5,489 bases of DNA from IMG/VR virus record IMGVR_UViG_2545824719_000020; one strand, written 5' to 3'. Within the stretch, counting starts at the first letter, position 1, and each line of letters begins with the position of its first letter. The notes under the pieces were generated by a model. It had not been told where the DNA came from. It ran no database searches and was given only the letters and a program-made list of their open reading frames with translations. Both the position numbers and the translations under genes were made by a program. The stretch comes from a virus. Taxonomy: Duplodnaviria > Heunggongvirae > Uroviricota > Caudoviricetes. Below, piece after piece: positions 1,422 to 5,459 of this stretch.

Positions 1422-3893
1422 TTAAAAATCAGCCTGATTCGGGATCAGTTTTTGCCAGATAACTGAAACGTATTTTGCCTGGTAACGGGCGTCATCAAGT
1501 GCATTATGGCGCTCACCTTCGAATGGAATAGCCGTTCTGGCATCGAAGTCTATGGCTTTCCCCAGCTCAACGATTGTGCGTACATCGCGATCGTTGTAGT
1601 AACGCCACGGGCAGGGGATCCCCTGCCGTTCGTATGAACGGCGCAAAATCGTGTTGTCGAAGTTGGCTCCATTTCCCCAGACATGAACAAAAAATTCACC
1701 GGAGTTTTCGTCGATAAATTCCCGCAATTGTAACAGTGCATCATCTAACGGGATTTCATCGGTCATAATGGCAGACTGCGCTTCACGTGATTGCTTCAGC
1801 CACCTTTTAATGACGTCACGATCAATGACTCCGCCAGCAGTTTCCAGATCGATAGTCTTACTAAATTCCGGTCCCATATCTCCGGTTTGCGGATCGAAAA
1901 ATATTGCACCTATTGAGATAATCGGGGCATCAGGATTTTTTCCCATGGTTTCAAGGTCGATCATTAGATGGTCACACGTCCTGCTGGTGGATGTGATAAC
2001 GTGATGACCGTTCATCGTAATTAAGGGATCTGCCGTCTCGCCAGTTTCACTATCGCTGGCGTGATCCTGAGCGCTACCAGCATTCTCCTTGTGTGGATGT
2101 TCAGCGCCTTCCATTTCCTTCGGATCATTTTCCTGAACTTCAACCTGATTCTCTTCATCGAATGTTTCCTGGTATGTTGCGTCACCCATCACCGCGCCAC
2201 AATCAGGGCAGTTGCCGCCACCGCTTTGACCGCAGGCGGTGCAGACTTTTTCCGGTTCCTGTTGCGCTACTGGCTCAGGTTGTTTCGTTTCTGGCTCGTT
2301 TTGTAACGCATTTGGGCTGTTTTGTTCCGCTTTCTGGCCGTTCTGTTCCGTTTCTTGTTGGTTCTGATTCACTGAATCGCGGGTTTCAATCCCCTTCACC
2401 CATTTCGGATCATTCGGGTCGCTAATCCCTGCAACAAATTCACCACGTGATACAGCAAGCAACTTATTGGCGTCAGGCTGGCTGATATTGGCTGCCTGCA
2501 TAATTTTGTTTACTTCGTCAGCGGTAACTTTTACCGGCTCTGGTTGTGCGATCGTGTCAGATGCACCAGTATTTTGTTGTGAACCTGAGTATGTACTGTT
2601 TTTGCGGGCGAAATATTCTTCTTTCGTGATTTCAGTAGCCCCGGCAGCCAGCGCCTTATCCAGACCAGAAAGTTTGTTTGCGCGACCGTATTTTTCGCCA
2701 TCCTTGTCGGTGAAGAGGAAGTAGAACGGCCCTTCACGCTCTACAGATGGTTCGACTTCCACTTTGCATTCGGTTTTTTCGTTGTCCGGAATTGCCGTTT
2801 CCACTGCATCAGTTTCTGGTACTGGCGACGAGAGAGTATCAGTTGCGCTCTGATTTCTTCCTTCATCTTCAAACACGCCCTTTGTAGTCAGGTATTCAGT
2901 AATGTATTTGTTCAGTGCCACAGGGTCTTTGTGAATGTCGATCGGACGTTCACGGACAAGGCCAAAAATAGTCTGGCGGTCGTAGCGAAGGGCATCAGGC
3001 TGTTTGCGCATTGATGCCGAGATACGCTTCCAGTCTTCGCGGTCGTTGTCGATAACTTCATTTTTTGCCCAGCGATGGATGCTGCCGTCAATGTTTCCGG
3101 CATCCACATCACCAGGCCAGAGAGCGTAGGCCAGTTCATCATCCAGTGTTTTCCATGTCTGCTTGTATTCGCGACGAATGGCGGCAGTGACAGGGTGGAT
3201 TTTTCCTGTTGAGTTTTCAGTGTTCTGCCGGTTGACTCTGGCGTAGGCGAGATCAACAACAGACGTGTATTTCCCGGTTTCTTTGCGTTCGGCTTCGCGA
3301 CGTTTTTTCCAGGTGCGTAATTCTGTCTGGATCTCAGGCCATTTTGCGCCCGGCTTACATTTATGTTTAACCCACCCGATGGCGAACAGCTTTAGTTCTG
3401 AATACATGACGTTAACTTCAGGCATTTTCATCAATGCCTCAACGATATGCCCGTCGAATGTTGCCATGTCCTCCTGCAACAATTCCTGTGCGCTAATAAC
3501 CATATCAACGGTGATGTTTTCACATGTGTCGAACTTAACCATGACAGCGTTCTGTACTTCAGGGGACAGCTTGTCAAAATTGACGTTCATCGGATCGGAT
3601 TCTGGTTCGACTGGAATAAAGGAAGCGGATTCCTCATCCCAGCGGTTTTCCTGCATATATTCAGCATCCCAGGAATCGAGGGCAGGGCGGGGTATACCGG
3701 GTTTATCCTCGCAGACAAGAAATTTATAAGCGCAGTCCTGAGCAGCCGGATAATGTTCCAGGAATTGCCAGTGAAATTTTGCGCGGGCGCGACGTTCATC
3801 ACCGGCTTCAATGGCAGTGGCTACAGCGACGGCACCTTCTTCCTTTATTGCCTGTTCGTCCGGAATGGCGGCGCAAATAAAGACTTTACTCAT
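1422..3893 (-). CDS. ydfE: 823-aa multidomain prophage protein with C-terminal DEDDh (DnaQ-like) 3'-5' exonuclease domain; likely the full-length form of Qin ydfE
   Basis: Uninterrupted 2472-nt ORF from ATG 3893-3891 to TAA 1424-1422, with GAGG at 3904-3907 upstream. Residues 641-823 carry the three DEDDh motifs: Exo I MIDLET (D646, E648), Exo II [12 protein letters not shown] (D746), Exo III [9 protein letters not shown] (H796, D801). Residues 551-565 form a CxxC-x7-CxxC zinc ribbon. Residues 1 to about 375 form a domain with no motif I can name. The gene symbol is positional only (gene after ydfD in the K-12 Qin order) and is not verified. Confidence 0.85.
   Translation of the reverse strand: [823 protein letters not shown]
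1425..1973 (-). other. DEDDh 3'-5' exonuclease domain (aa 641-823) of the 823-aa protein
   Basis: Motif-based call: DxE in MIDLET, D in NFDNTIL, H-x4-D in HNALDDA, with spacing typical of DnaQ/RNase T-like exonucleases. Confidence 0.75.
2199..2243 (-). other. C4 zinc-ribbon motif (aa 551-565, [15 protein letters not shown]) inside the low-complexity linker
   Basis: Two CxxC pairs 7 residues apart, flanked by Q/E/P-rich and acidic low-complexity sequence. Confidence 0.6.
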
Positions 3894-3988: not shown

Positions 3989-4177
3989 TTATCCAGCCGG
4001 GATTTCGTTATTCAGGTTCAGCGATACTTTTTTTAACGGGAGGCATTCACCGGGGATTTTTTGTTCGTCCCTTACCTGAATGCAGGATGACTTACTGTCA
4101 TAAATTCCGGTAATCACATTTTGTGGCTCACCCGTTATAAGAAAAACGGTCATCACCAGTGCAAATGCTGAAGTCAC
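3989..4177 (-). CDS. ydfD: YdfD-like small membrane (lysis) peptide, 62 aa, GTG start
   Basis: ORF from GTG 4177-4175 to TAA 3991-3989, with GGAG 7 nt upstream. N-terminal hydrophobic helix (SAFALVMTVFLITG) followed by a polar tail containing EQKIPGECLP and EIPAG, resembling K-12 YdfD as I recall it. Sits directly after dicB as in Qin. The GTG start overlaps the stop of the dicB downstream frame (GTGA). Confidence 0.7.
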   Translation of the reverse strand: MTSAFALVMTVFLITGEPQNVITGIYDSKSSCIQVRDEQKIPGECLPLKKVSLNLNNEIPAG

Positions 4178-4361
4178 TGCTGTTCTCCGATAATACCAAG
4201 TTCAAGAAGGGCAATTCTGGAAAGTATGGAATTATCATTGAGAAGATAAGGTTCATATTTTCTCATCTTAATGGCATCTTCAGTAAATACCGGGTTACTG
4301 ATAGGACACCAATTTCAAAACAACCTTCAGACGTATTAACGTTTGGTAATAACGTTTCCAT
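4174..4361 (-). pseudogene. dicB: dicB (cell-division inhibitor) homolog disrupted by a -1 frameshift after codon 19
   Basis: ATG 4361-4359 with GAGGA at 4369-4373. Frame 1 encodes METLLPNVNTSEGCFEIGV (matches the DicB N-terminus MKTLLPNVNTSEGCFEIGV) then reads LSVTRYLLKMPLR and stops at 4265-4263. From 4305 the -1 frame encodes (P)ISNPVFTEDAIKMRKYEPYLLNDNSILSRIALLELGIIGEQQ and stops at TGA 4176-4174. Restoring one nt near 4304/4305 gives a 62-codon ORF, the length of K-12 DicB (…GVTISNPVFTEDAI…). Confidence 0.7.
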
Positions 4362-4376
4362 TATCGCGTCCTCAAC

Positions 4377-4528
4377 AATGAATTTTGTGATGCGGTGCCT
4401 GGTGCCTCCAGGTGACGTTAACCAGTTAACAATTAACGCCGGATACAGAGAATCCACCCATAACACTGTTTTTGGTTTTAACTGTTCCGCGTGCGCTCAG
4501 CCGCATTCACCACATCACAAAATTCACT
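4377..4528 (-). promoter_or_regulatory. Long-range 21-bp inverted repeat (RNA duplex) bracketing the DicF-terminator to dicB-RBS spacer
   Basis: Plus 4377-4397 (AATGAATTTTGTGATGCGGTG) is the reverse complement of plus 4508-4528 (CACCACATCACAAAATTCACT). In the minus-strand transcript this gives 19 Watson-Crick pairs plus 2 G-U pairs, contiguous. One arm starts 2 nt after the DicF U-tract; the other ends 3 nt before the dicB Shine-Dalgarno. Confidence 0.45.
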
Positions 4529-4530
4529 TT

Positions 4531-4573
4531 AAAAAGGGCGGCAGAGCAGTCACGGAGTAAAACTGATACCGCC
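4531..4573 (-). terminator. Intrinsic-terminator-like hairpin plus U5 tract forming the DicF 3' end
   Basis: GGCGG (4573-4569) can pair with CCGCC near the 3' end (about 4541-4537), enclosing an internally paired loop (CAG/CTG), followed by TTTTT at 4535-4531 on the minus strand. Read-through would be needed to express dicB and downstream genes. Confidence 0.5.
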
Positions 4574-4588
4574 AAACGTCACCAGAAA
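4536..4588 (-). ncRNA. dicF: DicF small regulatory RNA (53-nt mature form; ftsZ-targeting sRNA of the dicB operon)
   Basis: Minus-strand sequence 4588 to 4536 is TTTCTGGTGACGTTTGGCGGTATCAGTTTTACTCCGTGACTGCTCTGCCGCCC, followed by TTTTT. This is identical over 53 nt to the DicF sequence as I remember it. Same strand and position (between ydfC and dicB) as in Qin. Confidence 0.92.
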
Positions 4589-4925
4589 ATTGATAACAGA
4601 GGGCGTTGCAGCGGAGTTGTCACTTAAGCGTATGGTCAACCTGACAACCCGGTGTCCTCAACGGGGAAGGAATACCCCCGCCATACTTACCGCCGCGCCA
4701 TTTCGCGGAGTGCCACAACCGGAAGCGCACGGTCGAACTAAATTTAACGACACCGTACAGAGAGACCAATTTCGCCGTGCGCTTTCGCTTTATGCCCTGA
4801 CTTTTCAGGGACATATCCTTTCAGTAAACTGTCAGTGCCGGATGTTCACCCGTGTCCGGCGCACGCACTCCACCTGACCCGTGGAGAACTCCTTAATTAC
4901 CAACCTTAGCTTCGTTGGTTAGCTA
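4589..4925 (-). other. Hairpin-rich untranslated spacer between ydfC and DicF (DicF precursor/processing region)
   Basis: No convincing ORF on either strand. Perfect short inverted repeats at 4693-4708 (CCGCG/CGCGG), 4792-4814 (CCCTGA/TCAGGG plus 3 bp after a 1-nt bulge), 4837-4860 (GCCGGA/TCCGGC), 4868-4886 (CTCCAC/GTGGAG) and 4899-4919 (ACCAAC/GTTGGT). Confidence 0.55.
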
Positions 4926-5144
4926 TTAACGCGGGTATGTAATCATTCTGGCAATGCTTAATGCCGCTGCTTTTTCCAGCTTGGTGATATCCTGCTCCAG
5001 AGCGGACAGATTTTCAGCCTGCTTAGTCCTGGCTTCATTGGCCCATTTCAGATCCTGCGCTGCATTAATTTTCTGGTGCATCCACTCATAAAGTTCATCA
5101 TCGGTATAGTCTGGCGCGATGATGACGGGTTCTCGTTTCTGCAT
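4926..5144 (-). CDS. ydfC: YdfC-like small protein (72 aa), function unknown
   Basis: ORF from ATG 5144-5142 to TAA 4928-4926, with GAGGA 6 nt upstream. Non-repetitive, helix-like composition. Size and position (third gene before dicF) match ydfC of Qin. Confidence 0.75.
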   Translation of the reverse strand: MQKREPVIIAPDYTDDELYEWMHQKINAAQDLKWANEARTKQAENLSALEQDITKLEKAAALSIARMITYPR

Positions 5145-5173
5145 ACTGATTCCTCGCGGTGCTGTTTCGCTTA

Positions 5174-5302
5174 TCAGCCGTTAGATTTTGCCGAACTGGA
5201 AAGCGCCTGTTTAAACTCACTGAAGCTGAGAGCTTCTTCGTCTTCGGCAAGGCCTTCGAAGTATTCTTCGTAAGCCTTTTCCATGATTGTGTCGAAATCC
5301 AT
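5174..5302 (-). CDS. ydfB: YdfB-like small acidic protein (42 aa), function unknown
   Basis: Hand-translated; below the ORF-track size cutoff. ATG 5302-5300 to TGA 5176-5174 encodes MDFDTIMEKAYEEYFEGLAEDEEALSFSEFKQALSSSAKSNG. GGTGAG Shine-Dalgarno lies 4 nt upstream, and the ATG is 1 nt after the ydfA stop (TGAtATG). Size and position match ydfB. Confidence 0.65.
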   Translation of the reverse strand: MDFDTIMEKAYEEYFEGLAEDEEALSFSEFKQALSSSAKSNG

Positions 5303-5303
5303 A

Positions 5304-5459
5304 TCACTCACCTGAGTTTCTTTCCAGCCAGCGACGGGCACCATTTTCGGTTTTAAACGTTTTGCTTTTGGTATACGTCATTGCGGTGAACGTGCCGTCC
5401 TGGTTGGGGAACACGCCACATACCAGAGATTCGCTGTTGCCAAGATCGATAGTATCCAT
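5304..5459 (-). CDS. ydfA: YdfA-like small protein (51 aa), function unknown
   Basis: Hand-translated; below the ORF-track size cutoff. ATG 5459-5457 to TGA 5306-5304 encodes MDTIDLGNSESLVCGVFPNQDGTFTAMTYTKSKTFKTENGARRWLERNSGE. GAGG lies 5 nt upstream. Size, position and sequence agree with my recollection of K-12 YdfA. Confidence 0.7.
   Translation of the reverse strand: MDTIDLGNSESLVCGVFPNQDGTFTAMTYTKSKTFKTENGARRWLERNSGE

What the first reader, a model, noticed from the sequence alone, without database searches (positions are those of the whole stretch)
4174..4361. dicB cell-division inhibitor gene carries a -1 frameshift after codon 19
The reading frame that begins METLLPNVNTSEGCFEIGV stops 12 codons later at 4265-4263. 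The recognisable continuation (ISNPVFTEDAI…GEQQ) lies in the -1 frame and ends at TGA 4176-4174, overlapping the ydfD GTG start (GTGA). A single missing nucleotide near 4304/4305 restores a 62-codon ORF, the length of K-12 DicB. The downstream half is also diverged from the K-12 protein as I recall it (about 13 of 31 positions identical). DicB is a MinC-dependent FtsZ-ring inhibitor and is toxic when derepressed, so inactivation in a resident prophage is plausible. It could instead be a sequencing or assembly error; the site is not a homopolymer.
Basis: partly seen in the sequence, partly recalled or inferred. Interest (0 to 1): 0.62.

Follow-up and report, generated by a model that had tools for sequence, protein, structure and literature searches.

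The report
Frameshifted dicB, probably an assembly artefact
The prophage cell-division inhibitor gene dicB really is broken by one missing base in this sequence, but the break occurs only in this one draft assembly, at the edge of a repeat shared with sister prophages, so it is more likely an assembly error than a biological loss, and it is ordinary either way.

Summary
On the minus strand dicB starts at 4361, codes METLLPNVNTSEGCFEIGV, and runs into TGA at 4265-4263. The rest (ISNPVF…GEQQ) lies in the -1 frame and ends at 4176-4174 inside the ydfD GTGA. One base is missing between 4305 and 4304.

The diverged C-terminal half is not decay. It is the normal, intact allele of ompW-integrated prophages (WP_000449172.1), found in about 1,000 complete E. 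coli genomes.

The window comes from a draft contig of ETEC isolate p0305293.14 (Illumina reads, Celera Assembler) and ends one base from the contig end. Of its 61 differences from the nearest complete genome, 59 carry the state of two paralogous prophages in that genome.

The 33-nt patch holding the deletion starts at the first base past a 300-nt exact repeat shared with a paralogue. About 500 nt away, a 585-nt stretch is identical on two contigs of this assembly and is an interleaved mix of two paralogue alleles.

The deletion junction is absent from 5,426 complete genomes, from metagenome and viral contigs, and from species-representative genomes.

Most likely (about 0.55) this is a consensus artefact. 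A real pseudogene made by inter-prophage gene conversion remains possible (about 0.35). Interest is low.

The parts
4174..4361 (-). dicB, 62-codon gene split over two frames by a missing base
   Evidence: Pfam PF05358: 129.5 bits after repair, and only residues 1-22 as written. Annotated as intact dicB at the same position in the nearest genomes.
4263..4361 (-). Reading frame as written: 19 DicB codons, 13 out-of-frame codons, then TGA
   Evidence: This 32-aa product and the 67-aa GTG-extended ORF are both absent from the 15-billion-protein collection.
4304..4305 (-). Site of the missing nucleotide (the A of codon 20, ACT, in allele A relatives)
   Evidence: Alignments. The junction ATTGGTGTCCTATCAGTAACC has 0 hits in metagenome, GTDB-representative and IMG/VR contigs and in no complete E. 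coli genome.
4282..4314 (-). 33-nt patch with K-12/Qin-type (allele A) states inside an ompW-prophage-type (allele B) gene; it holds the deletion and a unique CCG Pro codon
   Evidence: The best match to this patch in 5,426 complete genomes is 95.6%.
4315..4614 (.). 300-nt stretch that is 100% identical between the ompW-side and rspB-side prophages of the nearest complete genome; it covers the first 47 nt of dicB, its leader and DicF
   Evidence: A second contig of the source assembly ends inside it, at the position equivalent to window 4451.
4536..4587 (-). DicF small RNA, intact
   Evidence: Rfam RF00039, 76.7 bits (gathering score 48), E = 3e-16, model positions 1-52/52.
3989..4177 (-). ydfD-like DUF1482 gene; its GTG start overlaps the dicB stop (GTGA)
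   Evidence: Pfam PF07358, 56.4 bits. K-12 has the same 4-nt overlap.
4797..5381 (.). ydfC segment identical on two contigs of the same assembly, and an interleaved mix of two paralogue alleles
   Evidence: The YdfC protein it encodes is found only in this assembly. No exact DNA match in complete genomes; best 99.2%.
3138..3471 (-). 333-nt tract within the 823-aa exonuclease gene that matches the paralogous prophages' exonuclease at 45 of 45 sites
   Evidence: The right junction is unique among complete genomes. The resulting protein is found on this one contig only.
1..1357 (-). Integrase (1-1131) and excisionase (1109-1357) of an ompW-integrated lambdoid prophage

Best explanation
The gene is an ordinary dicB of an ompW-integrated lambdoid prophage. 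The 1-nt gap that breaks it is most likely not in the bacterium's DNA. It was probably created when the assembler built one consensus from reads of three near-identical prophage copies. Relatives of the source ETEC isolate carry three paralogous int-xis-exo-ydfD-dicB-dicF-ydfC modules. Two of them have the K-12-type dicB (allele A) and the ompW one has allele B. The copies are identical for 300 nt up to codon 16 of dicB and then differ in a 5-nt block. That block aligns best with one gap in each copy. A column-by-column blend of the two copies that takes the gap in both of those columns gives exactly the window sequence, one base short of either parent. It is shown that the sequence is broken, that it is unique, that it sits at a repeat boundary, and that a nearby segment of the same contig looks like a blended consensus. 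It is inferred that the same process produced the deletion. On this reading the true gene is an intact 62-codon dicB.
For: (1) The window is contained 100% in draft contig APZZ01000095.1 of E. coli p0305293.14 and ends 1 base from the contig end. Genomes of that project were Illumina HiSeq paired-end (read length not given in the text found), assembled with Celera Assembler (PMC4462620).
(2) Against the nearest complete genome (602354, 98.9%), 59 of 61 differences carry the state shared by its two other prophages.
(3) The dicB patch 4282-4314 begins at the first base past a 300-nt exact c1/c3 repeat. A second contig of the same assembly ends inside that repeat.
(4) Positions 4797-5381 are identical on two contigs of this assembly. 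At the 12 sites where c1 and c3 differ, the states alternate c1,c1,c1,c3,c1,c3,c1,c3,c3,c1,c1,c1. The YdfC protein this encodes exists nowhere else among 15 billion proteins.
(5) Both states private to the window in the patch are allele B column states inside an allele A tract: G at 4291, and the gap in a 4-edit gapped alignment of the 5-nt block. The gapped alignment and its edit count are hand inference; MAFFT aligned that block without gaps.
(6) The junction is absent from 5,426 complete genomes and from three other collections. Every dicB gene read in the other loci fetched is an intact 62-codon ORF (24 copies), including 8 of the 10 loci that share this integrase; no dicB start was found by the scan in the other two.
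(7) Public drafts very often break inside dicB. One 46-aa partial DicB sits on at least 1,000 contigs, and singleton intermediate alleles sit on short contigs.
Against: Coverage was above 200x Illumina and the site is not a homopolymer, so a plain read error is unlikely. By my own reasoning, not a simulation, an overlap-layout assembler with about 6% error tolerance should not readily blend copies that differ at 8 of 33 positions, and reads from the ompW copy should outnumber overhanging paralogue reads there. A simple 2:1 majority vote also fails to reproduce every site. Intact hybrid alleles with the same A-type patch on a B-type tail do exist elsewhere (P0001 on 9 contigs; L013 DNA), so the patch itself need not be an artefact. 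The 333-nt exonuclease tract is pure paralogue sequence (45/45 sites) and looks more like true recombination than blending. No reads and no sibling isolates could be examined.
Confidence: 0.55

Rival explanations
1. The pseudogene is real. In this isolate's lineage the ompW prophage's dicB received a short gene-conversion tract from a co-resident K-12-type dicB. Processing of the mismatched 5-nt block in the heteroduplex (one bulged base on each strand) removed one nucleotide. DicB is truncated to 19 native residues and is inactive. Translation now stops 86 nt before the ydfD start, so translational coupling to the downstream lysis gene is lost.
For: The sequence as deposited has the deletion at a non-homopolymer site in a >200x Illumina assembly. 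Natural hybrid and intermediate dicB alleles exist, so recombination in this segment does occur. The exonuclease tract 3138-3471 (45/45 sites) fits true inter-prophage conversion in the same region. From established knowledge, DicB is toxic when derepressed, so losing it is tolerated.
Against: The allele is seen in no other genome or contig. It lies exactly at a repeat boundary near a contig end. The neighbouring ydfC segment shows a pattern that real recombination explains poorly: at least 6 switches in 440 nt, identical on two contigs. Two private changes within 14 nt would both have to coincide with allele B states.
Confidence: 0.35
2. An isolated base-calling or consensus error unrelated to the paralogues, in an otherwise genuine hybrid dicB allele.
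For: Hybrid alleles identical to the window apart from the missing A and one synonymous base exist (L013; P0001).
Against: Random indel errors at >200x Illumina coverage outside homopolymers are very rare. This reading does not explain why the second private change (CCG) lies 13 nt away, or why both match allele B states.
Confidence: 0.07
3. A programmed -1 ribosomal frameshift yields full-length DicB from the two frames.
For: None beyond the geometry: the two halves lie in frames 0 and -1.
Against: Reading the sequence 4320-4263 shows no X XXY YYZ slippery heptamer at or near codons 19-20. Every relative examined encodes DicB as a single ORF.
Confidence: 0.01

Closest known systems
DicB of the Qin cryptic prophage, E. 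coli K-12 (b1575; Pfam PF05358)
   Same: Same family. Residues 2-31 are identical and the repaired protein is 75% identical over residues 1-55. The operon order is the same (ydfA-ydfB-ydfC-dicF-dicB-ydfD), with the same 4-nt stop/start overlap with ydfD.
   Different: The C-terminal half belongs to a different allele class (13/31 identical). The prophage here keeps its integrase and excisionase and sits next to ompW. The ORF is interrupted as written.
DicB of ompW-integrated prophages (PPompW type), WP_000449172.1
   Same: The DNA is identical from 4174 to 4281 and from 4315 upstream. The neighbours are the same: DUF1482 gene, 823-aa exonuclease, xis, int, ompW. About 1,000 complete genomes carry it at 97.9-98.2% identity to the window. 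Phage records named PPompW carry it too.
   Different: Residues 16-25 read DIGVLLSNRE in that allele and EIGV(T)ISNPV in the repaired window. That allele is intact.
Intact hybrid DicB (EIGVTISNPVFTEDAIKMRKYEPYLL…GEQQ), e.g. EYW83720.1 from E. coli O111:NM K6897
   Same: The protein is identical to the repaired window sequence. The DNA of one example (JVGJ01000048.1) equals the window plus the missing A.
   Different: Its Pro24 codon is CCT, not CCG. It is intact. It is known only from draft contigs, none of them in the 5,426 complete genomes.
Collapsed-repeat or chimeric consensus errors in short-read draft assemblies
   Same: The window has multiple near-identical copies, lies close to a contig end, shows unique mixed-state sequence at a repeat boundary, and shares one consensus across two contigs.
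   Different: This is not proven at read level. The divergence within the patch is high for simple collapse.

Membership tests
DicB (Pfam PF05358) | Full-length match to the family profile | tested here: met
   The repaired 62-aa sequence scores 129.5 bits (cut-off 27) over positions 1-62/62. The ORF as written scores 42.5 bits over residues 1-22 only.
DicB (Pfam PF05358) | Single uninterrupted ORF of about 62 codons | tested here: not met
   The frame stops after 32 codons and the remainder lies in the -1 frame. Whether this reflects the organism or the assembly is unresolved.
DicB (Pfam PF05358) | Position in the dicF-dicB-ydfD operon of a lambdoid prophage | tested here: met
   DicF lies at 4536-4587 and the DUF1482 gene overlaps the dicB stop. 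The order matches K-12 Qin.
DicB (Pfam PF05358) | MinC- and ZipA-dependent inhibition of FtsZ-ring formation | not testable with these tools
   This needs expression and filamentation assays.
DicF sRNA (Rfam RF00039) | Covariance-model score above the gathering threshold over the full model | tested here: met
   76.7 bits against a threshold of 48, model positions 1-52/52.
Programmed -1 ribosomal frameshift gene | Slippery heptamer at the frame junction, and a two-frame layout conserved in relatives | tested here: not met
   No heptamer on reading the sequence. All relatives have a single ORF.
Collapsed-paralogue consensus artefact | Near-identical paralogues in the genome, with the anomaly at the repeat/unique boundary | tested here: met
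   The nearest complete genome has three paralogous modules. The patch starts at the first base after a 300-nt exact repeat. The paralogues were examined in relatives; within the source assembly only contig 92 could be examined.
Collapsed-paralogue consensus artefact | The same blended consensus placed at more than one location in the assembly | tested here: met
   585 nt are identical on contigs 95 and 92, with interleaved c1/c3 states. This was shown for ydfC, not for dicB itself.
Collapsed-paralogue consensus artefact | Mixed read population at the site, or absence of reads carrying the deletion | not testable with these tools
   No read data were available.

The most novel reading that the evidence does not exclude
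The deletion is real and is the footprint of inter-prophage gene conversion. A heteroduplex formed between two diverged dicB alleles of co-resident prophages. Repair of a two-bulge mismatch block removed one base. This inactivated the division inhibitor and uncoupled translation of the downstream lysis gene ydfD within a single clinical ETEC clone. It would be a concrete example of prophage-prophage recombination disarming a toxic cryptic-prophage gene.
Probability: 0.3. Interest if true: 0.3.

Novelty: already known. Interest (0 to 1): 0.12.

Why it matters
It matters little biologically. dicB, dicF and ydfD are well-described cryptic-prophage genes, and a frameshifted copy in one isolate would be one more prophage pseudogene.

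The practical value is cautionary. In E. coli genomes with several lambdoid prophages, the 5' third of dicB is a repeat boundary where draft assemblies break or blend copies. Frameshifts, unique 'alleles' and mosaic proteins there (dicB, ydfC, the exonuclease) should not be scored as pseudogenes or recombinants without read-level or long-read support.

If the deletion were real, it would also predict lower ydfD expression through loss of translational coupling.

Tried and rejected
1. I looked for the same allele elsewhere. Megablast of the 381-nt and 91-nt dicB regions against 5,426 complete E. coli genomes and against phage records gave a best match of 98.2% and 95.6%, always with one extra base. 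Exact-pattern scans of metagenome, GTDB-representative and IMG/VR contigs, for the hybrid with or without the base and for the deletion junction, found nothing.

2. Exact protein look-ups of the truncated 32-aa and 67-aa products found nothing.

3. I tried to reach sibling isolates or the source genome's other dicB copies. The integrase look-up returned only unrelated long contigs. The mBio paper's supplement is not held.

4. I tested a strict majority vote over three copies. It explains 59 of 61 differences from c1. It fails at several sites where c2 = c3 but the window keeps the c1 state (4980, 5027, 4812, 4845, 4876, 5241), so I rejected it as the sole rule.

5. I had recalled from memory that the window's CCG Pro codon came from a K-12-like donor. 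That is wrong: K-12 has CCA.

6. Programmed frameshifting was rejected: there is no slippery site and relatives have a single ORF.

7. Decay of the C-terminal half was rejected: it matches an intact common allele.

Full report
**What is in the sequence**

dicB lies on the minus strand, with ATG at 4361-4359. The frame codes METLLPNVNTSEGCFEIGV, then 13 unrelated codons, then TGA at 4265-4263. Translating 4302-4174 gives ISNPVFTEDAIKMRKYEPYLLNDNSILSRIALLELGIIGEQQ*. Its TGA at 4176-4174 overlaps the GTG start of a 62-aa DUF1482/ydfD-like ORF.

Adding one base after codon 19 gives a 62-residue protein that matches Pfam DicB over its full length (129.5 bits). The ORF as written matches only residues 1-22. 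DicF RNA lies upstream at 4536-4587 (Rfam, 76.7 bits). The gene order matches K-12 Qin: ydfC, dicF, dicB, ydfD, with the same 4-nt overlap.

**What the gene is**

The window is the left arm of a lambdoid prophage integrated next to ompW. It holds int, xis, an 823-aa exonuclease with a 3'-5' exoribonuclease domain, the DUF1482 gene, dicB, dicF and ydfC. At least two dicB allele classes circulate:
- Allele A is the K-12/Qin/O157 type: …EIGVTISNPVFTEDAINKRK…
- Allele B is the ompW-prophage type: …DIGVLLSNREFTEDAIKMRKYEPYLL…GEQQ (WP_000449172.1).

Allele B is intact and annotated as dicB in the nearest genomes. About 1,000 of 5,426 complete genomes match the window's dicB region over at least 80% of its length; the 40 best are 97.9-98.2% identical and all are annotated as intact dicB. 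The window's C-terminal half is identical to allele B. Its 13/31 identity to K-12 therefore reflects allele class, not decay.

**Where the window comes from**

The window is contained base for base in APZZ01000095.1, a 118.6-kb draft contig of ETEC isolate p0305293.14. It ends one base from the contig end. The strain belongs to a project of multiple colony isolates per patient. Sequencing was Illumina HiSeq at more than 200x coverage, assembled with Celera Assembler (PMC4462620). P0305293.1, an isolate from the same patient, is listed in PMC4309559.

**The mosaic pattern**

The nearest complete genome, strain 602354, is 98.9% identical, with 61 differences. That genome carries two further paralogous modules, next to potC (c2) and rspB (c3). 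Of the 61 differences, 59 carry the state shared by c2 and c3. The differences form four groups:
- a 333-nt tract in the exonuclease gene (3138-3471, 45/45 sites);
- a 33-nt patch in dicB (4282-4314) that contains the deletion;
- a 1-nt intergenic indel at 4664;
- scattered sites in ydfC.

Inside the dicB patch the window is allele A-like except for two private states. One is the missing base. The other is a CCG Pro codon, which was seen in no other allele: K-12 and c2 have CCA, and c3, O157 and the hybrids have CCT. Both private states equal the allele B state in that column, provided the 5-nt block (CACTA versus TCTGC) is aligned with one gap in each copy. By hand count that alignment costs four edits against five for the ungapped one (MAFFT itself left the block ungapped).

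**Why an artefact is the leading explanation**

1. In strain 602354, c1 and c3 are 100% identical over window 4315-4614. The patch begins at the first base beyond this 300-nt repeat.
2. A second contig of the same assembly (APZZ01000092.1) carries the c3-type immunity region and ends inside that repeat, at the position equivalent to window 4451.
3. Over 4797-5381 the two contigs are identical. At the 12 sites where c1 and c3 of strain 602354 differ, both contigs show the same interleaved series c1,c1,c1,c3,c1,c3,c1,c3,c3,c1,c1,c1. No complete genome matches the DNA exactly. A blended repeat consensus placed twice explains this simply. Real recombination would need many switches and then a second homogenising event.
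4. The deletion junction is found in none of 5,426 complete genomes and in no metagenome, species-representative or viral contig. Every dicB gene read in the other fetched loci is an intact 62-codon ORF, including 8 of the 10 loci with the same integrase; the scan found no dicB start in the other two.
5. Public drafts routinely break inside dicB. Many partial DicB proteins sit at contig ends, one of them on at least 1,000 contigs. Singleton intermediate alleles sit on short contigs.

**Why it is not settled**

- The site is not a homopolymer and coverage was high.
- By my own reasoning, not a simulation, copies differing at 8 of 33 positions should not blend easily in an overlap-layout assembler. 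A plain majority vote also fails at several sites.
- Intact hybrid alleles identical to the repaired window protein exist on nine draft contigs. The DNA of a partial copy on a separate 807-bp contig (JVGJ01000048.1) equals the window plus the missing A. A further natural class (P0080) joins the TISNPVF motif to a B-like tail. Recombination in this segment is therefore real in the population.
- The exonuclease tract is pure paralogue sequence and could be genuine conversion.
- A heteroduplex between alleles A and B could physically adopt the same two-bulge pairing and lose one base during repair. The blended look of the patch therefore does not by itself separate an event in the cell from one in the assembler.

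**If the deletion is real**

DicB would be cut to 19 native residues and almost certainly inactive. Ribosomes would stop 86 nt before the ydfD GTG, abolishing the stop/start coupling seen in all intact copies. DicF would be unaffected. Programmed frameshifting is rejected: there is no slippery heptamer, and all relatives have a single ORF.

**Verdict**

The gene is a known dicB allele.
- An assembly-consensus artefact at a paralogue boundary: about 0.55.
- A genuine strain-specific pseudogene from inter-prophage conversion: about 0.35.
- An unrelated base error: about 0.07.
- Programmed frameshifting: about 0.01.

Either way the finding is ordinary and interest is low. Copy-anchored read mapping or copy-specific PCR would settle it.

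Noticed in passing
window 4797-5381 (ydfC and flanks); L012 (APZZ01000092.1): This 585-nt stretch is identical on two contigs of the same draft assembly. It alternates between the alleles of two paralogous prophages at 12 diagnostic sites. It encodes a YdfC protein seen nowhere else, which is the signature of a collapsed-repeat consensus.
   Followed up: yes
window 3138-3471, inside the exonuclease gene 1422-3893: This 333-nt tract matches, at 45 of 45 sites, the exonuclease of the two other prophages in the nearest complete genome. Its right junction is unique among 5,426 complete genomes, and the 823-aa protein is known from this contig only. It is either real inter-prophage conversion or a chimeric join.
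   Followed up: partly
window 4536-4587 (-): An intact DicF sRNA gene (Rfam, 76.7 bits) lies 175 nt upstream of dicB, inside the 300-nt exact repeat shared between prophage copies.
   Followed up: yes
window 4664 and 4675: There is an intergenic 1-nt deletion and an adjacent substitution relative to the nearest genome's ompW prophage. The deletion matches the state of both paralogues, and the substitution matches c2 only. One complete genome (FCI29) is 99.4% identical here.
   Followed up: partly
window 1683: This is the only substitution in the window that matches none of the three prophage copies of the nearest genome. It lies in the exonuclease gene.
   Followed up: no
Related loci L014-L019, L031-L033, L013: dicB codons 16-26 are a mosaic hot spot across E. 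coli. A third natural class (…TISNPVFTEDAINMRKYEPYLL…FGERQ) occurs on 9 contigs. Singleton intermediates such as EIGVLISNRVF occur on short draft contigs.
   Followed up: partly
window 4159-4560 (+): A 133-codon ORF runs antisense to dicB and its leader. The source contig has a 52-aa gene called from it, apparently only because dicB itself could not be called. It is probably spurious.
   Followed up: no
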